The position numbers and the translations under genes were made by a program. Below are positions 1,115 to 63,713 of a stretch of DNA of 64,000 bases, in pieces. The stretch is from a virus. The DNA lies in IMG/VR virus record IMGVR_UViG_3300043172_000590, positions 1 to 64,000 of that record; one strand, written 5' to 3'. Under the pieces are notes generated by a model. It made no database searches. It saw only the letters and a program-made list of their open reading frames with translations, and was not told the origin of the DNA. Numbering within the stretch: position 1 is the stretch's first letter; each line of letters starts with the position of its first letter.

Positions 1115-1461
1115 ATAAGCGATTTTCTTTTTCCAGTCGAAAATTTAATAAACTTGTGCGGCAGGTTAATAACCATGCCACCAATATTCAACCGGCCCTC
1201 AATCCTTTCTTCTCCATCCCGGATCTCAACGGTGGTTACCTGCAGTAGTTTGGCGCTCTTGATTTGATTCTTAAGGAACAGCGGCTCTATTTTATTGTTT
1301 CCGGTCCTGAACTTAAACCAAGCGTGTTCAAAGGTCAATGTGGAGCGTTCTGTTTTAGATAGGCACATTTTATGCTTATTGTCAATCCATTCGCCGTTTC
1401 CGACTACTTCCCGAAATCTAGCAGGAAATATTTTAATAACCCCTCCGAAAGTTTGTTCCAT
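1111..1461 (-). CDS. Hypothetical protein
   Basis: 116-aa ORF, ATGA overlap with the next gene. Confidence 0.6.
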   Translation of the reverse strand: MEQTFGGVIKIFPARFREVVGNGEWIDNKHKMCLSKTERSTLTFEHAWFKFRTGNNKIEPLFLKNQIKSAKLLQVTTVEIRDGEERIEGRLNIGGMVINLPHKFIKFSTGKRKSLI

Positions 1462-1479
1462 TTTATTAAATAAATTAGT

Positions 1480-1806
1480 TTACAATATTCTTATATCAGT
1501 AGGATAAATTTCAGCATCCCTAAACACTCTGTCTTCTATTTTGGTGATGTAATAATTGAGTACCCCTTCTATATAAATCTTGTCATGCCTGCGTAGTTTC
1601 GCCCCAACCCTTTTCGCCCTCAATCCCCGGACCATTACCCTATGGATGTCATCAACAATCTTCATTACGCCGGTTTCCTTATCCTCGGATGCTCTCTCTG
1701 TCCTGACATTTATCAATAAGAAATGCCTGTCTTGCCGGTTTATTATCTTAGGAGTCCCATATACCACCCCGACTATTATTACTTTTTGTGATGTTGATCT
1801 TGACAT
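1480..1806 (-). CDS. SSB-like OB-fold protein lacking an acidic tail
   Basis: KVIIVG...DIHRVMVRG..AKRV...LRRHDKIYIEGVL follows the SSB pattern. Confidence 0.65.
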   Translation of the reverse strand: MSRSTSQKVIIVGVVYGTPKIINRQDRHFLLINVRTERASEDKETGVMKIVDDIHRVMVRGLRAKRVGAKLRRHDKIYIEGVLNYYITKIEDRVFRDAEIYPTDIRIL

Positions 1807-1812
1807 ACTGAT

Positions 1813-2265
1813 TTATATTTCAACATTTTTAAGTTCAATTTCTCCATTAGTTATTTCTGCTAAGTCGTGGAGGGTTTTAATAGGAATCCATTCTTTAGTC
1901 TCGTTATCAAACAAAAATATTGCACCATCCTTTTCTGATTGCATCCAGTATCTTCCTATTCTCCATACATCACCTACCGGCTCCACAATAACATTTTCAA
2001 ATATTACTTTCTTTTCGGCCGTTTTCCATGACTCTAACCTTTTATAAAATGCCTCATCAGTCTCCGCAAATCCCTTATCATTAATTGGCTTTATTCTCTT
2101 ATTAAACACCATCTCTTCGGTTAATGGTTGTTTGATGAAATTAGTATATCCAACAACGGTATCGAAACACAGTGCTTTGAATTGCATCCTTTTTATGATT
2201 ATATTACGCTCAGGGATTAAGATTTCAATAAATTGACTCAGTGTATGTAGTTTATTTATTTTCAT
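1813..2265 (-). CDS. Hypothetical protein
   Basis: 150-aa ORF in a tightly packed operon. Confidence 0.7.
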   Translation of the reverse strand: MKINKLHTLSQFIEILIPERNIIIKRMQFKALCFDTVVGYTNFIKQPLTEEMVFNKRIKPINDKGFAETDEAFYKRLESWKTAEKKVIFENVIVEPVGDVWRIGRYWMQSEKDGAIFLFDNETKEWIPIKTLHDLAEITNGEIELKNVEI

Positions 2266-2267
2266 AG

Positions 2268-2477
2268 TTATTTAGCTTTTAAATGATCTACGATAAACTG
2301 CGCCTCTGGTAATTGTAGCTTGCCTCCATTTTCCATCACATCTTTCGTGTCCTCTTCCTCGTTAAGTCCTGCGACTTGTTTGACATAGGCTTTCTTTTCA
2401 TGCCCGTTGTCGGTCAAGACGATTCCGACGATTCCACTCATGGATGATATCCATATTGCCTGTACTTCCTTGCTCAT
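2268..2477 (-). CDS. Hypothetical protein
   Basis: 69-aa ORF, 2-nt spacing to the next gene. Confidence 0.6.
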   Translation of the reverse strand: MSKEVQAIWISSMSGIVGIVLTDNGHEKKAYVKQVAGLNEEEDTKDVMENGGKLQLPEAQFIVDHLKAK

Positions 2478-2520
2478 AATTTCTATTGTTTTACCTCTCC
2501 TTTAGAGGAAAGGGGTTTGA

Positions 2521-2835
2521 TTAATCATCACCTATTACATAAATAAGCAATCCGACAAATACAATAAATCCTATAATAAATCCACCTATTGCCGCATACT
2601 GGAAGTTGTATTCTAATTGCACGTCAAACCATTTACGTAATAATAGTCCTGTATAATATGAAACATTAGCAACTACTATTGTTATTGTCAGATAGGCGGC
2701 AACTTCAAGTATTAAATAGTACCATTTGCTATCAATAGGAAGTAATTTTTCAATTATTAATGGCAATAATGGGAGTGCCACTGTAGCTATGAATATCACG
2801 CCAATTATATATCCAAATTCTATTACCAATATCAT
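2521..2835 (-). CDS. Membrane protein (3 TM)
   Basis: Three hydrophobic stretches. Confidence 0.6.
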   Translation of the reverse strand: MILVIEFGYIIGVIFIATVALPLLPLIIEKLLPIDSKWYYLILEVAAYLTITIVVANVSYYTGLLLRKWFDVQLEYNFQYAAIGGFIIGFIVFVGLLIYVIGDD

Positions 2836-2864
2836 AACTATCTATTTTAATTCATTAATATTAA

Positions 2865-3290
2865 CTATTTACGATATCCATTCTTTTTTAACCAACTCCA
2901 AAACCCATCTCTCGTAGGCTCTTTTAACTTTATATAACATATCTTCTCCCGGGTTATTTTTGTTGTGAATGTTTCTTTTTCGGAAGAGTCAACATAAGTG
3001 ACTATATTAAGATGGGTGGTGGTCCCAGAATAATCCCAGAGTATTACATTTTCATATTCCTTATATTCACCACATTCAATCAAAACCCATGCCGTATCAA
3101 TAGGAATAAGCTTCAACTCCCCACTTGATGCATCAATATCATAGTGCACTATCCCGTGTTCAGTGATGGTGTCTGGCACTATTTCAGAACATTCATCATG
3201 AAAGGCATTCCATAGTTTTAAATATTCGCTATCCTGTGGAAAAACCTGGCTATATATAGCCATTGTGATAATCAATAATAATGTTTTCAT
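2865..3290 (-). CDS. Exported hypothetical protein
   Basis: Signal-peptide-like N-terminus MKTLLLIITMAIYSQVFPQ. Confidence 0.6.
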   Translation of the reverse strand: MKTLLLIITMAIYSQVFPQDSEYLKLWNAFHDECSEIVPDTITEHGIVHYDIDASSGELKLIPIDTAWVLIECGEYKEYENVILWDYSGTTTHLNIVTYVDSSEKETFTTKITREKICYIKLKEPTRDGFWSWLKKNGYRK

Positions 3291-3295
3291 AACTT

Positions 3296-4090
3296 CTATT
3301 TTAAAGTATTAATATTTATGATTGCTCCTTCTTTAAATGCTTTTTTTGCAAATTCCATATTCACGAGCCTATCATATACCTCGTCGGTTAATTTCCCTTT
3401 ATAACTGTTCGCAAGCTCAATAATATATTCCTTTTTAGCTTTAGCCCATGATAGATGTGCATCTATTTCCGATGAATAGAATCCGAGATTTATCCGGTTT
3501 CCATGTTTACCAATAAATGCCCTATATCTGCCATTTGAATATTCTCTAACTCCCATGAGCAATTTATTCTTTTTCGCATAATTAGAATGTACTGCTAGAT
3601 TTATTTTTCTTGGAACAAAACAACATCTGTCAAGGCGATACTCCCTATTCCCACTAATCAATATATCTTTATCAATTTCAAACCCTCTGATATAATTATC
3701 ATAAAACCACTTATTGAAATTAGTAAAACTATGCCATTCATCGCACACAAAACAATTTAAATACGTTGGTTTTCTTTTTTTATATTCAGTATTATATCCT
3801 CTCACAATCATTGCAGCCCAGACTTTATATGACAATTTAGTTAGGCTATCATTCTGTATGGATATGTTGCTTCCTATGTATCCAACACCGCAAACAGTTT
3901 TCTTTAGAAAATCAAGAACCTCCCCTTTTTTAATATTACCAAGCTGTGCTGTCACAATCGAACCGGTATTTACAAATTGGCATTCTATGCTTCTAGCGTG
4001 ATTATATTTAACAATAATTAAATCCCCGCAATTATTTGTACTAAACAATCTTCCTTCGTACTTTAATTTATTCTCTATTCTCTTACACAT
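3296..4090 (-). CDS. HNH homing endonuclease with C-terminal AP2 domain
   Basis: CDEWHSFTNF..W, IDKDIL..GN..Y....CCFVP..IN, then AP2-like GV.....RYRA.I......NLG.Y....DAH. Confidence 0.8.
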   Translation of the reverse strand: MCKRIENKLKYEGRLFSTNNCGDLIIVKYNHARSIECQFVNTGSIVTAQLGNIKKGEVLDFLKKTVCGVGYIGSNISIQNDSLTKLSYKVWAAMIVRGYNTEYKKRKPTYLNCFVCDEWHSFTNFNKWFYDNYIRGFEIDKDILISGNREYRLDRCCFVPRKINLAVHSNYAKKNKLLMGVREYSNGRYRAFIGKHGNRINLGFYSSEIDAHLSWAKAKKEYIIELANSYKGKLTDEVYDRLVNMEFAKKAFKEGAIININTLK

Positions 4091-16553: not shown

Positions 16554-18344
16554 ATGAAAAGAGAATTGACAGAAGCAGCCAAGGCAGCCAAGGCAATAAG
16601 AACTGAGTTAAAAGAGGAATTTCCGGGAGTTAAATTCTCGGTTAAGTCGTCCAATTTTTCAATGGGAGACAGCGTCCACATATCCTATGTTGATGGACCG
16701 TTAACAAAAGATGTAGTAATCATCACAGGTAAGTATCAGCAGGGACATTTCGACGGAATGACAGATATGTATGAGTATTCCAACAGCAGAGACGACATAC
16801 CTCAAAGCAAATACGTACAAGTTGGTCGCACCATGTCAGCAGAGACGAGGGATGCGATATGGAAACATCTACAGGAGACGTTGACCGGATGCGAGGGCAA
16901 GGATATTGAGTCTCTTATTCCTGAATGGAACCAGTACGGATCACATTTAACCTACCGTGTATTTTCAGAGACTAACTACTATACTGAGCCTGAAAAGAAA
17001 GAGTTATCCGCATCTACCGTGGAAGGATTAGATTTTGAAATGGAAAAAACAGTGCACACTAAGAAGGGGCACGACGTCTGGGTAGCTAAATCATCTACCC
17101 GTGTCGGCAAAGATGAGTTCAGGGACTTGCTGGACTGCGCTAAGATGCTGGGAGGGTACTACTCTTCGTACAGTAGAGACGGAGCAGTGCCAGGTTTTCA
17201 GTTTAAATCAGATGAGGCATGCAGGGAGTTTGTAGCTAAATGTAGTAGCGAGACAAAAGAGCCGGTCGATAACACTATTGAGACATCAACAGTAACATCG
17301 AAGACGACAACAAAGAAGTCCGATGTAAAAAATGAGGTAATGGCTGCTAAGTGGCAGAAGCTTTCTGATTCATACAGAAACGAGAGCGACAAGCTGTATG
17401 ACAGGTTGAAGAATGCGCAGACCAATACACCTAAGCGGAACAGGGAATATAATTCCAAGAAAATTGATGCTGATATATTGAGTGATGTATCTATTCTTGC
17501 TCATGGTATTGCATTAGGATACGAGGATGGGACTTTAGCCGAAGAGTTAAAAGTATTGCAGCCAATTAAAAATAAAAGACAACTAATGATGTTTGTCCCG
17601 GGCCATGCTAATACCGGTGGATACTACGACGCCTTTAGAGACACCGTTCCGAATTACAAAAGGAATGGCAATATCACTGCTGGATTAAATGATGTGGGTA
17701 TTGAGACTGAGGCGCAAGCGGATAAGATACTGGAATTATTGAGCGCATTGGATAATACAAGCTCAGCGGAAAAAGAGAAGAGAAAAAACGAGGACAGGAT
17801 TAAGCAGTTGGAGGATAATTTTAAGTTTCAGAAAATCAAAGGATTCTTCCCTACCCCTCTCGATATGGGGCGTGAAATGCTGAGCAGATTGGGAATAACA
17901 AACGGGCAAACTATATCTGATCCATCTGCAGGGCTTGGGCATTTAGCTGCGATTGTCAAGGAAGAATATCCAGACAACACACTGAAAACATTTGAGATAA
18001 GACCCGCTCTCTCGGAAATCCTAACACTCAAAGGATTCGATAATACGTGCGCCGACTTTCTTGAGTGCGATGAGAAATTTGATAGGTTTATTATGAACCC
18101 CCCATTTGAAAACTCACAGGATATTGACCACGTTCGTCATGCGTACTCGTTATTAAACGATGGCGGCAGGATTGTATCTATCATGGGGTCTGGCACATTT
18201 CACAACTCTTCCAAAAAACATAAGGAGTTTCAAGCGTGGATTGACGAGATTGGCGCCGAGTATGAAACAAATCCCGAGGGCTCATTCAAGGGAGCATTTA
18301 AAAGTACAATGGTTGGCTCCTGTATAGTTGTAATTGATAAATAA
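16554..18344 (+). CDS. LPD29 domain + N6-adenine methyltransferase fusion
   Basis: N-terminal AKAIRTELKEEFPGVKFSVKS..FSMGDSV.I.Y.DGP (LPD29); C-terminal FFPTP, DPSAGLG, MNPPF. Confidence 0.82.
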   Translation: MKRELTEAAKAAKAIRTELKEEFPGVKFSVKSSNFSMGDSVHISYVDGPLTKDVVIITGKYQQGHFDGMTDMYEYSNSRDDIPQSKYVQVGRTMSAETRDAIWKHLQETLTGCEGKDIESLIPEWNQYGSHLTYRVFSETNYYTEPEKKELSASTVEGLDFEMEKTVHTKKGHDVWVAKSSTRVGKDEFRDLLDCAKMLGGYYSSYSRDGAVPGFQFKSDEACREFVAKCSSETKEPVDNTIETSTVTSKTTTKKSDVKNEVMAAKWQKLSDSYRNESDKLYDRLKNAQTNTPKRNREYNSKKIDADILSDVSILAHGIALGYEDGTLAEELKVLQPIKNKRQLMMFVPGHANTGGYYDAFRDTVPNYKRNGNITAGLNDVGIETEAQADKILELLSALDNTSSAEKEKRKNEDRIKQLEDNFKFQKIKGFFPTPLDMGREMLSRLGITNGQTISDPSAGLGHLAAIVKEEYPDNTLKTFEIRPALSEILTLKGFDNTCADFLECDEKFDRFIMNPPFENSQDIDHVRHAYSLLNDGGRIVSIMGSGTFHNSSKKHKEFQAWIDEIGAEYETNPEGSFKGAFKSTMVGSCIVVIDK

Positions 18345-53444: not shown

Positions 53445-54881
53445 CTATTGGTCTGTTCTTAGTACCAGTATTGTTTGGTTTAAAGCCAAGAAGATGCTCA
53501 TCATTTCTGACAGCATGTAAACACTATTGTCATCCCAATCGTCGCTAACAGGTATTCCTTTACCGTTAACACCGGCCTTATTTGCAACAATAAGCCTACG
53601 GTCTTCGCCGTTGTAGTTCAGGTAGCCTAAACTTACGTGCGATACCGACTTTTTGTATCCATCCACGGACATGCCTCCCTGATTATAACTGTTCATAGTC
53701 GCAGTTACTTTAGAGTCAGGGAACATCATACCTAATGTTTCGAAATTGAAACCATCGGCTGCATAAGTAGTCGGATTACTAAACTCAGGAATTGGGATTA
53801 AATATGATTTAAACCCGTTCTTAAATATCTCACGAACATTGAAACCAACGGTTTTCATATTGGTGTACAAGTCTGTTCCCCCGCTATATTCCTTTATGAA
53901 TGGCAATTGCGCATTCTCAATAGAGAGGTTGAGCTCCTGTCCCATGCAATACATTCCAGAACCAGACATTACACCCTGCGATGCATATAAGAATTTAATC
54001 TGGTCGAACTGATCCATATTGTATGTTCCGGTATAGAATTGCTTCATGCCATCAACATACATAGATGGAAGAAGTCCGTTGTCACTGGGAATCAAATTGG
54101 ATTCTCCAAACCTATTGGCCTGAGTCAGGGCAGCATCGTTGGCACGAGAGTTAAGTATCTTGTCGTCAAACTGATACTGCATCTTTAGCCTTAACCTTGC
54201 CATTTCTCTCAATCCAAGACTGCTTCCATCTGGATCTTGTAGCATAGCTTCCCACTCTTCAAGTGCCTGCTGTCCACCTTCGATATTGATGGTATCTTTC
54301 AGTATTTGAACTTCATGGAAGTGGCTGAAATAATCCTGAACCGAACCTGCTGGCTGTCCAGAGCCGGGAGCAAACATTGATGCACCATTTATCAAATCAG
54401 CTCCTACGGGTACCGCAGTTGTAATTTGAGCTGCACCGGTAACACTCTCCGCTACGTAGTCAAAATTTGAGCCATTGGCAACTTTGGATACGATACGATA
54501 GGTCAATACAAGATTTCCTGCCGTATTAAGCTCGGTCCCATATTTTCCCGGAACGTGTATTAAGAATCCAATACGCCCACTTCCGTTTGAGTTAACAATA
54601 GCAATGTCCGCACCTGCGCCACCGGTAGAAATCTCCGTAGCAACTTTAAGTGTCTGATGATAATGACCTTGCTCGATCACTTCAAGGGATCTTCCCTTGA
54701 TGGATATTTCTTCGCTGGCCATCTGTACAATATCTGCATATCTCAGTCCGGGTCCATATAATTGAACCAATTCCCTATATACTTGAGGCTTTAAAGTTAG
54801 GTTATTAACCGCTCTCCAAGCTGTTGAGAATATACCTTCTCTTCCGTTTCCCCTTACTGCGGGGCCTTTAATAGTACTCAT
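53445..54881 (-). CDS. Major capsid protein
   Basis: 478 aa, after portal and scaffold; GS.QP, QILKD...I.G, GL.P.....G, HK97-like layout. Confidence 0.8.
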   Translation of the reverse strand: MSTIKGPAVRGNGREGIFSTAWRAVNNLTLKPQVYRELVQLYGPGLRYADIVQMASEEISIKGRSLEVIEQGHYHQTLKVATEISTGGAGADIAIVNSNGSGRIGFLIHVPGKYGTELNTAGNLVLTYRIVSKVANGSNFDYVAESVTGAAQITTAVPVGADLINGASMFAPGSGQPAGSVQDYFSHFHEVQILKDTINIEGGQQALEEWEAMLQDPDGSSLGLREMARLRLKMQYQFDDKILNSRANDAALTQANRFGESNLIPSDNGLLPSMYVDGMKQFYTGTYNMDQFDQIKFLYASQGVMSGSGMYCMGQELNLSIENAQLPFIKEYSGGTDLYTNMKTVGFNVREIFKNGFKSYLIPIPEFSNPTTYAADGFNFETLGMMFPDSKVTATMNSYNQGGMSVDGYKKSVSHVSLGYLNYNGEDRRLIVANKAGVNGKGIPVSDDWDDNSVYMLSEMMSIFLALNQTILVLRTDQ

Positions 54882-54912
54882 AATTTAAGTCTTTTGCTTG
54901 TTTAACAAAATT

Positions 54913-56091
54913 TTATTGAGCTGGCTTTCCGAACATTTCGTTGATTCTATCCTCAACGGTTTTCTTCTCTTTACCTCCTACGATTGGCTCCTTTTTGTTT
55001 AAACCTACGCCAGCGTTATCATATTCTTTACGCACCTCATTTTCGGTCTGCGTCTTAATATGAGAACTAAGTGCTGCGAAAATCTTTTCGTAATTATCAC
55101 CAATCATAGTTTTCAATAAATCTTCCTGGATATCCTTCTGTCCCTGTTCTGTTTGCAAGTCGTAGTATCCATCCATCACATCCTCGATAATACCTTCCTT
55201 GTAGTTGCCCTTTGATGCATCCTCTGCATTAAATTCAAATACAAATCCGTCATACTCCACTTTATTTACACTTGATACAAACTTTTCCGCAGGGGCCGTG
55301 AGAGTGTCCCTCTTAGCTTTAATGTCCTCCATTGAAGCTGTTTTATCTTGGGTTAATTTTTCCAAGATATCATCACCCTCGGCCTTCGGCAGTTCGACAT
55401 CACCTCCGATTTGAGAAAGCTTTTGTCGCTCGGAATGAGCCGCATTCTTTATAATATCATTTTCAAGAGGAGTCCTTTCGTACCCCTCGGTCAATATGTC
55501 TTCAACATTCAATCCAAGCTGCGACAGTTTAACTCCCAGTGGGTTAGAGGTGCCGTTTGCAGAACTAAGTTTTGCACTTAATGTCAGCACGTCCATATCG
55601 TCCATTTTCGCAACATCAGATCTCATTACCTCATTCAATACACCTTCTTTTCCGGAATATGCCACATCTTTCGATAATTGTGCAGCTTTGTATGCTGTCT
55701 CGTCAGGGAAATATGACAATACATCAGATTGTCCTTTGAGTTTTTCGATTAATGCATCGACATGTCCGGCTTTTTCTTGTAATCCCGGCATTCCCTTGTA
55801 TGCTTCTGCGACAGCAGCGAAATCATCAACACTTGCTATCTCTAATCCTGTTGCTTTATTGAAGAATTCTAGGCGTTGTTCTGTAGTGAAGGATTCGTAA
55901 TCCGCCGGATTAGCTGGATCGGCTGGATCGGCTGGATCGGCTGGATTAGCTGGATCGGCTGGATCGGCTGGATCGGCTGGATTAGCTGGATTAGCTGGAT
56001 CGGCTGGATCGGCTGGATTAGCTGGATCGGCTGGTTTTTGTTCTCCTAAAACTGCATCTCTAATTTGCTTGTCGATCTCTTCTGTTGTCAT
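54913..56091 (-). CDS. Scaffolding protein with (PAD/PAN)15 repeat
   Basis: Acidic and helical, between portal and MCP. Confidence 0.7.
   Translation of the reverse strand: MTTEEIDKQIRDAVLGEQKPADPANPADPADPANPANPADPADPADPANPADPADPADPANPADYESFTTEQRLEFFNKATGLEIASVDDFAAVAEAYKGMPGLQEKAGHVDALIEKLKGQSDVLSYFPDETAYKAAQLSKDVAYSGKEGVLNEVMRSDVAKMDDMDVLTLSAKLSSANGTSNPLGVKLSQLGLNVEDILTEGYERTPLENDIIKNAAHSERQKLSQIGGDVELPKAEGDDILEKLTQDKTASMEDIKAKRDTLTAPAEKFVSSVNKVEYDGFVFEFNAEDASKGNYKEGIIEDVMDGYYDLQTEQGQKDIQEDLLKTMIGDNYEKIFAALSSHIKTQTENEVRKEYDNAGVGLNKKEPIVGGKEKKTVEDRINEMFGKPAQ
55900..56034. repeat. 9-bp tandem repeat x15
   Basis: atcggctgg/attagctgg units encoding PAD/PAN. Confidence 0.95.
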
Positions 56092-58523: not shown

Positions 58524-60875
58524 TTAACATCTGTACGACCTTGGGTTTATACTCTCCATCTCCTCTTTCTCTTCCATGCCTAACGATAATAATTTATAGT
58601 AAGCACTCTGTTCGCCTATTAATGCCTGTATCCATGATGCAAGGCCATCGAATTTAGTAAGTTCTTCCATTGACGATATCTGGTCTGCCTCTATCAAGAG
58701 CTCAGGTATATCCTCTATTGTAGAATGGAACTTGATTTGATTAGCCAAAAGCAGGAATCCATCTTTTTTGTTCTGCATACCCAATGAGGTCCCAGGCTTC
58801 GATGCCCTTTTTATTGTACCGTCAGGCATAACCGTAGTTGTATAATTCAGGTAACCGGTAAATTTCTTTTCAACAATCCGTTCCCATACCGCTGTAATAT
58901 TTTGCTCTAAATTAATTAGTCCTCCCCAGTATATGCCAGCTTTGATTGCCTCCATTGCAACTTCATCGCTTGTCCCAAACCTATGCCTGCAGAATGCCAC
59001 GGCTTTAGGAGTAATCCATTTCCGCTTATCTTCTGCGATATCAATAATTGGATTATGCATTCTTTTTACTGTAATCCCTGTGTCAGAAGTCCTTGTACCT
59101 TTCTTTTGTAGATATCTTGACTCGCCTTGGTTATTGAATTGGGTAGGATCGACACCTATCATATATTTTATATTCATAGGTCGATAAACAGTTTCGTCAT
59201 CTTCCATGAATGCAGAGTATGCTTCCATAGTAGAGACCTGATTAGCCTCACCTTTGGCTGGTTTTTCGCTAACAATCCATGGCCCATTAGGGTCTTCTAT
59301 AAAAGTTACTGATAAACTCCCTTGGTCAACAAACATCAGCCTGCCTTTTCTTGCGACCGGCTTATCTTCCAGTTCGAATAACCTTTCTCTCAGCAATTCA
59401 TTGTCAAATCCAAGCTGCCCTGCTACACCTGTCCAGCAATCCTTACAGTCCTGTGGGAACTTGCGGACAAATGAACGATATTCATCCATCATAGCAGGAT
59501 CGTCTTCGTTGTGCAAATCCACTCTTTTATTTTCTATGAACGTATTGGAGCCAATCCGTTTGATGGGCATATCGTGCTTTTTGGATAGCATTATCTGCCT
59601 TTCATTTGGCATGTCAATTATCGCTTCCCCAAAAACATCAATGTACCCTTCCATGCAGTAGTCGCTCCTATGATAACATAAAGCCAGCCCTGAGGCGGTT
59701 TGTCCATCTTTCTTCCTCTTGTAGAAGTTGGACATGTCACATAAATCCTTATAGTCCTGTCCTCCTTCTTCCATTTTTTCTACAGTTGATGGATGATCGC
59801 AATAACCAACCACCTCTGATCCTCCTCCCAGAGACATTGTTTCTTTATTTATCTGCCAACGGTTTTGTACGTTACCGGTCCTTTTCCCTTTCCCCTGTTC
59901 GTCAAATCCAGCACCAATCAGCATTTTTCCATCATTCGCCTTGTCGTCTCCCGATTCAGTATACGACAATACCGTATCTAATGTTTGCACATCGGCTATT
60001 CCATTTGATGTAAATTCAAGAGATTTCATCTTTCCGAAACCTCCAAGCCATACAGGCCTGGTCCATAATGGCCATGCTCTCCACGCAGGCATTAATTTTT
60101 GCTTAAAATGTGTCTCTGCATTATCTCCGTCCATGGAAACAATCGTACACAATTTATCTGCCCCTCTTTGCGATGCAGCTATACGGGTGATGATATGGCA
60201 AAATTCATTTGTCAATCCCTCTCTCCTTCCTTTGGGAAGTGCTGTGCCAAGCAGCAGTTTGTATCCCACATCAACCATCCGATAAGCCATTTTACCATCA
60301 ATATCAATCTTTTCCGCCAACCCTGTTTCTGGATCTGTATCTACAAATGTTTCCGTACATGTGTTTATATAATGCCTGAAAAGAAACCTTTCTTTGCTTT
60401 TTTTTCTGAACTCAGGGAATATATATCCCTTTTTGGTGGTCATTCGATGTAGGTTCAGATAACTGAAATACCAGGGAGGAAGCCATGTCGGTTTTCCGTC
60501 GTTAAAAAACCAATAGCCATGGTGCATATAATATACAAACTTGCGTATAAATTCAATCTCTTCTGTGTAGTTTTCTTGGTTTTTCTCAAGCGTTGACCAG
60601 AATTTCTTAAGTGTAGCGTTACCATTTACTCCCCGGTTTTTATTTCCGAACTCTGTAATAATACTTCTCTCTAACTCTCTCAGTCTTAATGGATTTTCGA
60701 GTCTTTTAAATATTTGGTCGTCAGGGTGTTCCCCCCATCCGCCAATCAGGTGTAGTGGTGGAGGTTTTGGCAGCGATATCCTAATAGGCCTCAGTTTCTC
60801 CGAGCCCCAGTTGACCAAAAAGCTTGTGTCTGCCTCTTGGTACAGATGGCTATATCTACACTCCTGGTTATTCAT
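58524..60875 (-). CDS. terL: Terminase large subunit
   Basis: KGRREG.T (Walker A variant), FDEQGK (Walker B), PST, IGVDP nuclease motif, KFDG. Confidence 0.9.
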   Translation of the reverse strand: MNNQECRYSHLYQEADTSFLVNWGSEKLRPIRISLPKPPPLHLIGGWGEHPDDQIFKRLENPLRLRELERSIITEFGNKNRGVNGNATLKKFWSTLEKNQENYTEEIEFIRKFVYYMHHGYWFFNDGKPTWLPPWYFSYLNLHRMTTKKGYIFPEFRKKSKERFLFRHYINTCTETFVDTDPETGLAEKIDIDGKMAYRMVDVGYKLLLGTALPKGRREGLTNEFCHIITRIAASQRGADKLCTIVSMDGDNAETHFKQKLMPAWRAWPLWTRPVWLGGFGKMKSLEFTSNGIADVQTLDTVLSYTESGDDKANDGKMLIGAGFDEQGKGKRTGNVQNRWQINKETMSLGGGSEVVGYCDHPSTVEKMEEGGQDYKDLCDMSNFYKRKKDGQTASGLALCYHRSDYCMEGYIDVFGEAIIDMPNERQIMLSKKHDMPIKRIGSNTFIENKRVDLHNEDDPAMMDEYRSFVRKFPQDCKDCWTGVAGQLGFDNELLRERLFELEDKPVARKGRLMFVDQGSLSVTFIEDPNGPWIVSEKPAKGEANQVSTMEAYSAFMEDDETVYRPMNIKYMIGVDPTQFNNQGESRYLQKKGTRTSDTGITVKRMHNPIIDIAEDKRKWITPKAVAFCRHRFGTSDEVAMEAIKAGIYWGGLINLEQNITAVWERIVEKKFTGYLNYTTTVMPDGTIKRASKPGTSLGMQNKKDGFLLLANQIKFHSTIEDIPELLIEADQISSMEELTKFDGLASWIQALIGEQSAYYKLLSLGMEEKEEMESINPRSYRC

Positions 60876-61988: not shown

Positions 61989-62079
61989 TTATTTAGTCTA
62001 AATAATAATAACGTTACACACAAAGTAAGATTATACAAACTTAAATTCCAAGCACTTTGGGAAATATTGCATATCTTTG
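61989..62079. promoter_or_regulatory. Divergent promoters and palindromic operator
   Basis: TAAGTTTG (minus, 62036-62043), TATCTTTG (plus, 62072-62079), palindrome TTATTTAGTCTAAATAA 61989-62005. Confidence 0.6.
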
Positions 62080-62100
62080 GATATAAAAACAATTTCAGAT

Positions 62101-62367
62101 ATGCCACAAGCAGGACTAAGAAGGACCGCCAGATATTATAGGTCACACCCTCTGGCAAGAAAAAAGAAAAAGGAATACGATACTAAGTATCATAGATCTC
62201 CTGAGCGAAGGAAATACAGATCTAGGCTTGGATCTATGAGAGCTAAAAGAGGATTGAAAGGTGATGGTCGGGACTTGTCTCACAATAAAGATGGGAGCGT
62301 GTCACTAGAAAACAAATCCACTAATAGGGCAAGAAATGGAGCAAATGGAAGAAGTTCGAGGAAATAA
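62101..62367 (+). CDS. Small basic HNH-like protein
   Basis: KGDGRDLSH.KDG....ENKSTNRARNG. Confidence 0.65.
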   Translation: MPQAGLRRTARYYRSHPLARKKKKEYDTKYHRSPERRKYRSRLGSMRAKRGLKGDGRDLSHNKDGSVSLENKSTNRARNGANGRSSRK

Positions 62368-62575
62368 AAACCCTTGCGACGGGAAAGATGTGTCGTGGAT
62401 TGCTCTTGATGAAATCGCGATGGGATTTCGGAGGACAAAGGCAAGGTGGATGATTGAAAACGAAACAAGACTTGATGGTGCTGCGGTAATGGAGGGTTTA
62501 AGTATTTCTTCCGAGGACATTGAGGCACTCGAGAATATCTAGCCTATCGTGCCACACGTAGGACGGAAAGGTTTC

Positions 62576-62609
62576 AAAGCCCGATAAGACATGATTCTTA
62601 CCGGGCTTT
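62576..62609. terminator. Terminator between convergent genes
   Basis: aaagcccg..taaga / tctta..cgggcttt stem. Confidence 0.6.
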
Positions 62610-62632
62610 GCGTTTTTAGTGATACTAATACG

Positions 62633-63253
62633 CTACAACTCTAATCCGTCAGCAGTCGGTTCTATTTTTGTGTTTTCAGGATTGTAGCTTTCTGGATAAG
62701 GATTAGGCTCGTTAAGCCTCTTTAGATCCATTCCGAGCCACATGATAGATTCCTGTAGTTTAGTTATAGCTAAACTGCGCGCTCTTGACGAGGGGCATTT
62801 TTTGATGTTTTGTAATTGGTCATCAAGGCCTTGTCTTAATAATTTATTTGCCTTGACATCTTTCTCCATGTGCTGGCCCGCAACCATATCCATATTGAAA
62901 TCAAACAAACTGCGCACATCTAATGCCCTAACGATAGATATAAACAATGCGTCTTTCGCTTGCTGCTCTTTTGGTAAGTCTTCGTAAGGAACAATACATG
63001 GGTGTTCTTGTTTGACCGGATCTTTAACCTCTCCGCAAACCCAGCCATTAGCAATCTTTTCTTTCATCCAGTTATTGTGGCTGTCGCAAGATTTGGAATT
63101 GGGGTTTTGAAGATGAAACTTAACACCATTAATGGCGCTTTCCTTTTGCCATTCAGGGGCATCCTCCCATGAAGACTGGGTGTCATCTCCAATACTTTGA
63201 CAATACGCCCTGTTTACTTCATGGCACACTTTAGCAATCTGCAATACATTCAT
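62633..63253 (-). CDS. RyR-domain protein fused to an Acb2/Tad1-like helical hairpin
   Basis: IAKVCHEVNRAYC...SHNNW...K...GW..G.VKD...K.HPC.VPY..LP..Q..KD..F, then SRARSLAITKLQESIMWLG. Confidence 0.75.
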   Translation of the reverse strand: MNVLQIAKVCHEVNRAYCQSIGDDTQSSWEDAPEWQKESAINGVKFHLQNPNSKSCDSHNNWMKEKIANGWVCGEVKDPVKQEHPCIVPYEDLPKEQQAKDALFISIVRALDVRSLFDFNMDMVAGQHMEKDVKANKLLRQGLDDQLQNIKKCPSSRARSLAITKLQESIMWLGMDLKRLNEPNPYPESYNPENTKIEPTADGLEL

Positions 63254-63272: not shown

Positions 63273-63713
63273 TTAATAAGCCTGCCCTTTATCGGGCAAG
63301 TCTTCTGGTTTTACATATACCGGAACCGGCTCCTCCCATGAGTTGTGCCCGTTCCTAAAACAATTCATATATTTTCCTGCGAGATAAACCGTTTCAAGTC
63401 CAACCTCGGTTTTCTTTATATTTAACTCTCCATGGACTATCGCAGTATCCTTGACTGCTACCCGCTTATTGTCGATACCTTCTCTTAGTATCTTCTTTGC
63501 CTCTCCTTGAAAATAGATGGTAAAAATGTCATCGCTCTCCGGCCCTGTTCTATCTCTCGTGTAATCAATCAGCCTCAACCTTACTTCGATGTATGACGCC
63601 GTAACTGTCACCTCATCTATTTTTCCCACAAGCATGAAACTTCTGTCCGGATTTATTGCCGGAGCAGGATTTAGCATACTATATGCTGCGTGGGTCCTTG
63701 GCTTCTTAGGCAT
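63273..63713 (-). CDS. Divergent SSB-like OB-fold protein
   Basis: MLVGKI...DIFTIYFQGEAK.....V.VKDTAIVHGEL. Confidence 0.45.
   Translation of the reverse strand: MPKKPRTHAAYSMLNPAPAINPDRSFMLVGKIDEVTVTASYIEVRLRLIDYTRDRTGPESDDIFTIYFQGEAKKILREGIDNKRVAVKDTAIVHGELNIKKTEVGLETVYLAGKYMNCFRNGHNSWEEPVPVYVKPEDLPDKGQAY

What the first reader, a model, noticed from the sequence alone, without database searches (positions are those of the whole stretch)
62633..63253. RyR domain fused to an Acb2/Tad1-like hairpin: candidate two-site immune-signal sponge
The N-terminal ~110 aa is a clear phage RyR-repeat domain. The C-terminal part (LRQGLD...SRARSLAITKLQESIMWLG) has the R..SLAITKL.E..MW signature of Tad1/Acb2-type sponge proteins, which sequester CBASS/Thoeris messengers. 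Eukaryotic RyR repeats can bind adenine nucleotides, so the fusion hints that phage RyR domains are nucleotide-signal binders in anti-defence (inference).
Basis: partly seen in the sequence, partly recalled or inferred. Interest (0 to 1): 0.7.

Follow-up and report, generated by a model that had tools for sequence, protein, structure and literature searches.

The report
Phage RyR–Acb2 fused immune-signal sponge
A marine-sediment phage encodes one 206-residue protein that joins two known kinds of phage "sponge" module, an anti-Thoeris RyR domain and an Acb2-type module, so it probably traps two classes of bacterial alarm nucleotides at once; both parts were already known, and only the fusion is unreported.

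Summary
ORF 62633-63253 (-) encodes 206 aa.

- **RyR domain (residues 1-112).** It is 52% identical to the characterised gcADPR sponge RyR Tad (Pectobacterium phage CB1 gp68). All six of that protein's ligand-binding residues are kept (H59, W62, K77, H84, K100, D101).
- **Acb2-family module (residues ~113-206).** This is a complete module, not just a hairpin. Stand-alone 78-105-aa proteins are up to 91% identical to it. It keeps every residue named for hexamer formation and cyclic-trinucleotide binding in CmTad1, including the equivalents of Acb2 R67/T74.

It was published in two 2026 preprints (RyDEP; RyR Tad), so it is no longer new. The fusion itself is not mentioned in those papers.

The fusion is a conserved minority form: about 40 clusters at 90% identity, and one cultured phage, Sulfitobacter phiCB2047-B. 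RyR is joined to at least two Acb2 subtypes, in both orders, and the two also occur as adjacent genes.

Best reading: a Tad1-like two-module sponge against Thoeris cADPR signals and CBASS cyclic oligonucleotides. Ligand binding and the oligomeric state are untested. This scan has already noted RyR/Acb2 pairs and fusions in other genomes.

The parts
62633..63253 (-). Whole gene: 206 codons plus stop. It is the last gene of a minus-strand replication/recombination operon.
   Evidence: ORF list and translation. About 40 full-length homologue clusters at 49-66% identity. Upstream genes are an exonuclease, an MBL hydrolase, an HNH endonuclease and RecT.
62918..63253 (-). RyR / Repeat12 domain, residues 1-112. 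Four helices: 3-20, 34-49, 55-68, 95-111.
   Evidence: PF02026 E 7e-11. phmmer against RyR repeats in the PDB down to E 7e-21. AF2 pLDDT 93-97. Foldseek top hits are B. thetaiotaomicron and human RyR R12. BLASTP gives 52% identity to RyR Tad gp68, E 1e-40.
62951..63079 (-). Ligand-pocket stretch H59...D101, holding H59, W62, K77, H84, K100, D101.
   Evidence: These residues are identical to RyR Tad H129, W132, K147, H154, K170, D171 in a gap-free alignment. H59, W62, H84 and D101 have the same spacing as RyDEP H75, W78, H100, D117. All six are invariant or at least 90% conserved in the 41 homologues.
62882..62917 (-). Junction, residues 113-124 (..SLFDFNMDMV). This is the N-terminal segment of the Acb2-type module and acts as the linker.
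   Evidence: It aligns with the N-termini of the stand-alone 93-105-aa relatives (FDF motif). pLDDT 74-83.
62717..62881 (-). Acb2/Tad1 helical hairpin, residues 125-179 (helices 125-151 and 157-179).
   Evidence: PF24729. The A2 profile hits CmTad1 8kbb at E 8e-6 and Acb2 homologue 43 (9ptq) at E 0.77. AF2 models.
62738..62785 (-). Predicted hexamer interface and cyclic-trinucleotide site: R157, T164, K165, Q167, E168, M171, W172.
   Evidence: Residue-by-residue alignment to CmTad1. Roles of CmTad1 R88, T95, K96, Q98, E99, M102, W103. Acb2 R67/T74 have the same 7-residue spacing. All seven are at least 90% conserved.
62636..62716 (-). Conserved C-terminal tail, residues 180-206 (NEPNPYP.SY.P.N..I.PTADGL.L). 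Role unknown.
   Evidence: N184, P185, Y186, P187, S189, T200, A201 and D202 are at least 90% conserved in fused and stand-alone forms. It is predicted as coil with pLDDT 46-73 in monomer models.
62576..62617 (.). Inverted repeat (13-nt arms with 1 mismatch, 8-nt loop) followed by GCGTTTTT on the + strand. It lies between the convergent + strand ORF 62336-62542 and this gene.
   Evidence: Read directly from the sequence. The consensus scan did not list it. No T-run follows it on the minus strand.

Best explanation
The gene encodes a two-module phage counter-defence protein.

Module 1 (residues 1-112) is a RyR/Repeat12 domain of the RyDEP / RyR Tad family. It most likely binds the Thoeris signals 3'cADPR and 2'cADPR in the pocket lined by H59, W62, K77, H84, K100 and D101. 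It probably acts as a sponge rather than as a glycosidase.

Module 2 (residues ~113-206) is a complete Acb2-family sponge unit. Its hairpin most likely assembles into a D3 hexamer, as in Acb2 and Tad1. That hexamer would form two cyclic-trinucleotide sites at the three-fold axes through R157 and T164. It may form further sites at the two-fold vertices, where the conserved tail could contribute.

The overall layout, a ligand-binding head followed by a C-terminal Acb2/Tad1 hairpin, copies that of Tad1 with an unrelated head domain. One polypeptide would then neutralise Thoeris and CBASS signalling together.

Shown here: domain identities, residue conservation, and the recurrence of the fusion. 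Inferred: ligand binding by each module, the hexamer, dual specificity, and any benefit to the phage.
For: RyR module:
- PF02026 match above threshold.
- 52% identity, E 1e-40, to RyR Tad gp68, with all six SPR-validated gcADPR-binding residues identical.
- Same spacing as the RyDEP residues H75, W78, H100, D117.
- Six of eight tested RyDEP homologues bind 2'/3'cADPR. The two characterised sponges, H4 and H7, share this protein's sequence type.

Acb2 module:
- All 41 homologues hit PF24729, best E 2.9e-21.
- 1726 stand-alone short relatives, up to 91% identical.
- The profile hits Tad1 at E 8e-6.
- Every named CmTad1 hexamer/CTN residue is identical, as are the equivalents of Acb2 R67/T74.
- The same subfamily is in the published Acb2 homologue list. 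A divergent member, Acb2_5, blocked a 3'3'-cGAMP CBASS in plaque assays.

Fusion:
- About 40 clusters share the architecture.
- 4 of 80 IMG/VR loci and 6 of 80 metagenome loci of this Acb2 subfamily are RyR fusions.
- RyR is also joined to a short Acb2 subtype (phiCB2047-B, P0074, P0092) and in reverse order (P0255).
- The two also occur as adjacent genes (L035, L057, L221).
- No flanking gene is shared between loci that carry the fusion, as expected for a mobile accessory gene.
Against: - No experiment exists on this protein or on any fused homologue.
- The single-sequence PF24729 score (25.0 bits) is just under Pfam's cut-off.
- R157 and T164 are needed for hexamer formation as well as for CTN binding in Tad1, so their conservation does not prove ligand binding.
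- The Acb2 cyclic-dinucleotide residues Y11 and K26 have no alignable equivalent here.
- Ligand specificity in the Acb2 family is diverse: some members bind 3'cADPR instead of CBASS signals.
- The only tested member of this subfamily is divergent and carries an internal duplication.
- Whether RyR dimers and an Acb2-type hexamer fit together geometrically was not modelled.
- The host, and therefore its defence systems, is unknown. Only a distant terminase likeness to Flavobacteriia phages points to a host group.
Confidence: 0.68

Rival explanations
1. Single-specificity anti-Thoeris protein. Only the RyR head binds a signal. The Acb2-type module serves as an oligomerisation scaffold (hexamer) that stabilises or concentrates the heads, and it has no ligand of its own.
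For: In Tad1 the R and T residues are required for hexamer formation itself, so their conservation could reflect assembly alone. The Acb2 CDN residues Y11 and K26 are not recognisable here. RyR Tad gp68 also carries a second domain that showed no anti-defence activity of its own and takes part in dimerisation.
Against: The module occurs far more often alone: 1726 short relatives and 76 of 80 IMG/VR loci. It must therefore have a function of its own. The subfamily is listed in the published Acb2 set, and its tested member inhibited a cGAMP CBASS. The strongly conserved tail is not explained by scaffolding.
Confidence: 0.2
2. Both modules target Thoeris-type ADPR signals, for example 3'cADPR on one and 2'cADPR, His-ADPR or N7-cADPR on the other. 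The protein would be a broadened anti-Thoeris sponge rather than a Thoeris-plus-CBASS one.
For: Ten Acb2 homologues inhibit type I Thoeris, and Acb2_43 binds 3'cADPR using N- and C-terminal strands outside the hairpin. This module also has conserved N- and C-terminal extensions.
Against: The nearest tested member, Acb2_5, inhibited only the 3'3'-cGAMP CBASS and none of the three Thoeris types. The profile's match to Acb2_43 is weak, E 0.77.
Confidence: 0.12
3. The RyR head is an active RyDEP-type glycosidase that cleaves 2'/3'cADPR to ADPR rather than sequestering it.
For: The catalytic dyad equivalents H59 and D101 (RyDEP H75 and D117) are present.
Against: The same residues are present in the eight tested homologues, none of which cleaved (sequences). 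This domain is closest in sequence to the sponge types H7 / RyR Tad. No NARP1 NAD+-regeneration genes were recognised among the neighbours examined.
Confidence: 0.12
4. The protein has no role in counter-defence. It would be a nucleotide- or NAD-metabolite-sensing regulator of phage replication, encoded at the end of the replication module.
For: It lies in an operon with recombination and nuclease genes. The eukaryotic R12 domain is discussed as an ATP-binding metabolic sensor.
Against: Both modules belong to families whose tested phage members are anti-defence sponges or enzymes. The gene is patchily distributed with no conserved neighbours.
Confidence: 0.04

Closest known systems
RyR Tad (gp68 of Pectobacterium phage vB_PatP_CB1, NC_048653; apparently the same Pectobacterium protein as RyDEP homologue H7)
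   Same: The RyR/R12 domain is 52% identical over 106 residues. All six gcADPR-binding residues are identical. It is a phage accessory gene next to replication genes.
   Different: gp68 has an N-terminal beta domain and a C-terminal RyR domain. It is a dimer and has no Acb2 module. Here RyR is N-terminal and is followed by an Acb2-family module.
RyDEP (Mycobacterium phage DyoEdafos gp78), founding glycosidase of the phage R12-domain family
   Same: Same Pfam family. H75, W78, H100 and D117 are matched by H59, W62, H84 and D101 at identical spacing. A 139-aa 'RyR domain-containing protein' in the PDB (35tm_A) matches at E 1.6e-6; I did not check whether it is RyDEP.
   Different: RyDEP is a single-domain enzyme embedded in a NARP1 operon. 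This protein is closer to the non-catalytic sponge homologues and is fused to Acb2.
Acb2 sponge family (PaMx33 Acb2, T4 Vs.4, Acb2_43 = PDB 9PTQ, Acb2_5)
   Same: Two-helix hairpin with the R...T-K-L-x-E-x-x-M-W motif. R157 and T164 match R67 and T74. The length is that of a whole Acb2 protein. The subfamily is included in the published list of 4,204 Acb2 homologues.
   Different: It is fused to a RyR head. It has a long conserved Pro/Tyr-rich tail. The CDN residues Y11 and K26 are not alignable. The ligand is unknown. The PDB profile match to Acb2_43 is only E 0.77.
Tad1 (CmTad1 8KBB-D, CbTad1 7UAV/7UAW/8KBE-F)
   Same: The order of parts is the same: a ligand-binding head followed by a C-terminal Acb2/Tad1 hairpin. 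R88, T95, K96, Q98, E99, M102 and W103 of CmTad1 are all identical here. Tad1 is the known case of one hexamer trapping both Thoeris and CBASS signals.
   Different: The Tad1 head is a different fold; here it is the all-helical RyR domain. Only the hairpin (about 35-50 residues) is homologous. Tad1 structures are the 11 top Foldseek hits of the C-terminal model, but the E-values are not significant (0.75-2).
Sulfitobacter phage phiCB2047-B SUFG_00048 (188 aa, annotated as a hypothetical protein)
   Same: RyR-then-hairpin architecture in a cultured phage of the Schitoviridae. 40% identity over residues 1-172.
   Different: Its hairpin belongs to a short Acb2 subtype that ends soon after the MW motif, with no NPYP...TADGL tail. 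This is probably an independent fusion.

Membership tests
Phage R12/RyR-domain counter-defence family (RyDEP / RyR Tad; Pfam PF02026) | RyR/Repeat12 four-helix domain, with a Pfam PF02026 match above the gathering score | tested here: met
   42.7 bits against a cut-off of 27.4. 43.7 bits in the own-genome search. PDB RyR repeats to E 7e-21. AF2 model with RyR top hits in Foldseek.
Phage R12/RyR-domain counter-defence family (RyDEP / RyR Tad; Pfam PF02026) | Ligand-pocket residues: RyR Tad H129, W132, K147, H154, K170, D171, and RyDEP H75, W78, H100, D117 | tested here: met
   H59, W62, K77, H84, K100 and D101 are identical in a gap-free BLASTP alignment. All six are at least 90% conserved in 41 homologues.
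Phage R12/RyR-domain counter-defence family (RyDEP / RyR Tad; Pfam PF02026) | Homodimer through helices alpha1 and alpha4 | not tested
   The complex predictor could not be reached.
Phage R12/RyR-domain counter-defence family (RyDEP / RyR Tad; Pfam PF02026) | Binding (sponge) or hydrolysis (glycosidase) of 2'cADPR / 3'cADPR, and rescue of phage on Thoeris | not testable with these tools
   This needs EMSA, SPR or TLC and plaque assays. Sequence cannot separate sponge from enzyme, because the dyad is also present in non-catalytic homologues.
Acb2/Tad1 hairpin superfamily (Pfam PF24729) / Acb2 sponge family | PF24729 match above the gathering score (27 bits) | tested here: inconclusive
   This sequence alone scores 25.0 bits, E 2.2e-5, and 26.8 or 27.1 bits in the six-frame own-genome search. 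At family level the feature is clearly met: 41 of 41 homologues hit, best E 2.9e-21.
Acb2/Tad1 hairpin superfamily (Pfam PF24729) / Acb2 sponge family | Two long antiparallel helices joined by a short loop | tested here: met
   Helices 125-151 and 157-179 with pLDDT 87-97. The isolated module gives the same result.
Acb2/Tad1 hairpin superfamily (Pfam PF24729) / Acb2 sponge family | Cyclic-trinucleotide and hexamer residues: Acb2 R67/T74, CmTad1 R88/T95 plus K96, Q98, E99, M102, W103 | tested here: met
   R157, T164, K165, Q167, E168, M171 and W172 are identical to CmTad1. The R-to-T spacing of 7 matches Acb2.
Acb2/Tad1 hairpin superfamily (Pfam PF24729) / Acb2 sponge family | Cyclic-dinucleotide pocket residues of PaMx33 Acb2 (Y11, K26, with L14 and P90) | tested here: inconclusive
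   No PDB Acb2 chain other than 9ptq aligned, and that one only over the hairpin. The N-terminal segment (FDF motif) and the tail cannot be mapped to Y11, K26 or P90 by sequence.
Acb2/Tad1 hairpin superfamily (Pfam PF24729) / Acb2 sponge family | Homohexamer with D3 symmetry | not tested
   The predictor allows at most 4 copies of one chain and was later unreachable.
Tad1 (Thoeris anti-defence 1) | Tad1-type N-terminal head domain that forms the gcADPR/CDN pocket at the dimer interface | tested here: not met
   Homology to Tad1 chains covers only the hairpin (chain residues ~60-116). Residues 1-112 are a RyR domain. The protein therefore works like Tad1 but is not a Tad1 member.

The most novel reading that the evidence does not exclude
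The fusion assembles into a Tad1-like D3 hexamer. An Acb2-type core would carry two cyclic-trinucleotide sites, plus vertex sites built with the conserved NPYP...TADGL tail. Three peripheral RyR dimers would carry six cADPR sites. This would be a convergent re-invention of Tad1's 'one particle, two immune pathways' design from two independently mobile sponge modules. RyR+Acb2 joins are repeated (two Acb2 subtypes, both orders, adjacent genes), which would then suggest selection for physical coupling and not merely for co-expression.
Probability: 0.35. Interest if true: 0.6.

Novelty: new variant of a known kind. Interest (0 to 1): 0.42.

Why it matters
Phage sponges against nucleotide immune signals are a fast-moving field. 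RyR-domain sponges and enzymes were described only in mid-2026, and the published work truncated multi-domain homologues down to the RyR part. A natural protein that links a RyR head to an Acb2 core offers a ready test of three questions. Are sponge modules combined into multi-pathway inhibitors? Does hexamerisation through the Acb2/Tad1 hairpin act as a general chassis for different ligand-binding heads, as in Tad1? What does the highly conserved tail of this very abundant Acb2 subfamily do? In practice, the finding gives a function to a gene annotated as hypothetical in Sulfitobacter phage phiCB2047-B and in many uncultured marine and gut phages.

Tried and rejected
- **Foldseek on the full-length model** returned only RyR hits, so the hairpin was masked.
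- **Foldseek on the isolated C-terminal model** ranked Tad1 structures first (ranks 1-11), but at non-significant E-values of 0.75-2.
- **VIA-align second look** gave generic helical hairpins at Z 7-9 with no discrimination. Monomer fold comparison is uninformative for a two-helix hairpin.
- **Complex prediction.** A 3-copy request did not complete because the machine was unreachable. There is no oligomer result.
The contig of the 91%-identical stand-alone protein P0122 could therefore not be inspected.
- **Tree of C-terminal modules** (39 fused, 120 stand-alone). Fused forms cluster more than chance (19 changes against 35 in shuffles), but the tree is unresolved. One origin within this subtype is neither shown nor excluded.
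- **Megablast of 8 kb against cultured phages:** no match.
- **PADLOC:** nothing meaningful.
- **Neighbours.** Pfam, PHROGs and the PDB gave no family for the upstream 146-aa ORF.
- **Sequencing runs.** Only the probable source sample, a marine sediment metagenome, holds the stretch. No RNA holder is listed.
- **RyDEP Q54.** I did not map it, because the loop lengths differ.

Full report
**The gene**

An ATG-to-stop ORF of 206 codons lies at 62633-63253 on the minus strand, exactly as reported. The window belongs to a complete 77,826-bp virus record with direct terminal repeats. The large terminase next door (58524-60875) is only 24-26% identical to those of Cellulophaga, Flavobacterium and Maribacter phages. 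A Bacteroidota host is therefore likely but not shown. The only sequencing run that holds the stretch in full is a marine sediment metagenome, which is probably the source sample.

The gene is the last of a minus-strand operon that holds RecT, an HNH endonuclease, an MBL-fold hydrolase and an Rv2179c-like exonuclease. An inverted repeat at 62576-62609 follows it, and a short convergent + strand cassette lies beyond that. It is the only RyR match and the only PF24729 match in the genome, and there is no Tad2.

**N-terminal module**

- Residues 1-112 match Pfam RyR (PF02026) at E 7e-11, above the curated cut-off.
- They match ryanodine-receptor Repeat12 chains in the PDB down to E 7e-21.
- The AlphaFold2 model (mean pLDDT 89.8) shows four helices. 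Its Foldseek hits are the B. thetaiotaomicron and human RyR R12 structures.

Two 2026 preprints give this domain a function in phages.

[quoted passage not shown] Six of eight homologues bind these signals without cleaving them. Homologues H4 and H7 are nanomolar sponges that rescue phage from type I Thoeris.
- 10.64898/2026.06.04.730250 describes RyR Tad (gp68 of Pectobacterium phage vB_PatP_CB1). It is a dimeric sponge for 1''-3' gcADPR (KD 43 nM). Its binding residues are H129, W132, K147, H154, K170 and D171.

I fetched gp68 from the phage record and compared it with the window protein by BLASTP. The result was 52% identity over 106 residues, E 1e-40, with one single-residue gap that lies outside the pocket. 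All six binding residues are identical: H59, W62, K77, H84, K100 and D101. The same residues are invariant or at least 90% conserved in 41 full-length homologues. Membership of the RyDEP / RyR Tad family is therefore met for every feature that sequence can test.

Sequence cannot decide between sponge and enzyme, because the catalytic dyad is also present in the non-catalytic homologues. The nearest characterised relatives are sponges, so I favour a sponge.

**C-terminal module**

PF24729 (Acb2/Tad1 hairpin) matches at E 2.2e-5. That is 2 bits under Pfam's cut-off for this sequence alone. All 41 homologues match it, with a best E of 2.9e-21.

Residues 122-206 were searched against shorter proteins and found 1,726 stand-alone relatives of 78-105 aa that are 60-91% identical. 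They align end to end, including an N-terminal FDF segment and a very conserved tail, NEPNPYP.SY.P.N..I.PTADGL.L. The C-terminal half is therefore a whole Acb2-sized protein and not a bare hairpin.

A profile of this subfamily hits CmTad1 (8kbb) at E 8e-6 and Acb2 homologue 43 (9ptq) at E 0.77. The residue-level alignment to CmTad1 can be read against the published interface. CmTad1 R88 and T95 hold the phosphates of cA3. R88, K96, T95, Q98 and E99 make the contacts between dimers, and M102 and W103 contact the same residues of another protomer. All of these are identical here (R157, T164, K165, Q167, E168, M171, W172) and at least 90% conserved in the family. Acb2 R67 and T74 show the same 7-residue spacing.

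Sequences of this subfamily appear in the supplementary list of Acb2 homologues of Hadary et al. 2025. A divergent member that they tested, Acb2_5, inhibited the 3'3'-cGAMP CBASS of E. albertii. It did not inhibit the cUA CBASS, Thoeris types I, II or IV, or Pycsar. Other Acb2 homologues bind 3'cADPR instead, so the ligand of this module cannot be read from sequence.

**How common the fusion is**

- About 40 clusters (90% identity) of 196-264 aa share the full architecture at 41-66% identity. Many come from 70-82-kb contigs.
- At 50% identity there are three full-length clusters, plus roughly ten with RyR followed by a shorter hairpin.
- In IMG/VR, 4 of the 80 best loci of this Acb2 subfamily are RyR fusions, and none has a separate RyR gene within 4 kb.
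- In metagenomes, 6 of 80 are fused and one has RyR as the next gene.
- RyR is also joined to a different, short Acb2 subtype: Sulfitobacter phage phiCB2047-B SUFG_00048 at 40% identity, and P0074 and P0092, whose C-terminal parts are only 18-27% identical.
- It occurs in the reverse order in P0255.
- Adjacent Acb2-like-then-RyR gene pairs occur in L035, L057 and L221. Tad1-like hairpin ORFs lie next to RyR in L072 and L078.
- None of this window's neighbouring genes is found beside the fusion in other loci, which is the pattern of a mobile accessory gene.
- Both halves have closer stand-alone relatives (74% and 91% identity) than fused ones (66% and 76%). This suggests ongoing shuffling, although the module tree is too short to count events.

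**Mechanism proposed**

By homology, the RyR head binds Thoeris cADPR signals, one per protomer. The Acb2-type module builds a hexamer with two cyclic-trinucleotide sites. It possibly also builds vertex sites to which the conserved tail contributes, as the termini do in PaMx33 Acb2 (P90) and Acb2_43. The order 'head, then C-terminal hairpin' is that of Tad1, which is known to trap both gcADPR and CBASS oligonucleotides in one hexamer. Here an unrelated head does the cADPR part. All binding, the hexamer and the compatibility of RyR dimers with a D3 core are inferences. The complex predictor could not be used.

**Novelty**

Neither RyR paper mentions Acb2 or Tad1 fusions, and a full-text search for Acb2 together with RyR finds nothing else relevant. 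The fusion is therefore a new variant built from two known kinds.

Notes from this scan on other genomes already record RyR/Acb2 gene pairs, a RyR-hairpin fusion and RyR-Acb4 fusions. The theme is recurrent and this case is not unique.

Noticed in passing
proteins P0242, P0245, P0248, P0251: Proteins of 240-273 aa carry two RyR repeats in tandem in one chain (two PF02026 stretches each). This recalls the pseudo-dimeric Repeat12 of animal ryanodine receptors, whereas RyDEP and RyR Tad form homodimers.
   Followed up: partly
protein P0255 (259 aa); loci L035 4740-5567, L057 4854-5806, L221 318-1014: A reverse-order fusion exists (Acb2/Tad1 hairpin at residues 10-66, then RyR at 123-172). Separate adjacent Acb2-like-then-RyR gene pairs also exist. 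The two modules are therefore linked in several arrangements.
   Followed up: partly
window 62636-62716 (-), residues 180-206: The tail NEPNPYP.SY.P.N..I.PTADGL.L is conserved as strongly as the hairpin core in both fused and stand-alone proteins. It is predicted as low-confidence coil in monomer models. Its role (ligand pocket, inter-protomer strap or host target) is unexplained.
   Followed up: partly
protein P0122 (94 aa, contig 2,656 nt): A stand-alone Acb2-type protein is 91% identical to residues 122-206 of the fusion. That is far closer than any fused homologue (at most 76% in this part). It suggests a very recent fusion, fission or module exchange, or else a gene call on a fragment of a near-identical phage. 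The contig could not be fetched.
   Followed up: partly
window 62077-62542 (+): Two small + strand ORFs are wedged between two minus-strand modules. One is a 96-aa, very basic protein in phrog_6437 (E 3.8e-19). The other is a 68-aa ORF that ends at an inverted repeat with a T-run (62576-62617).
   Followed up: no
window 63273-63713 (-): The 146-aa ORF immediately upstream, with a 19-nt gap, has no Pfam, PHROG, PADLOC or PDB sequence match. A weak terminator-like hairpin (63281-63300, minus strand) overlaps its end just before the fusion gene's start.
   Followed up: partly
window 16554-18344 (+): In a 596-aa protein, residues ~380-596 match PHROG families annotated as DNA methyltransferase. 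The matches fall at internal positions of very large phage proteins (profiles of 1,400-3,400 positions).
   Followed up: no
L001 (Sulfitobacter phage phiCB2047-B, record 54471-55037): SUFG_00048 of this cultured phage, annotated as a hypothetical protein, is a RyR plus short-Acb2-hairpin fusion. It lies beside the thymidylate synthase and dCTP deaminase genes. It offers a tractable cultured system for testing this architecture.
   Followed up: partly
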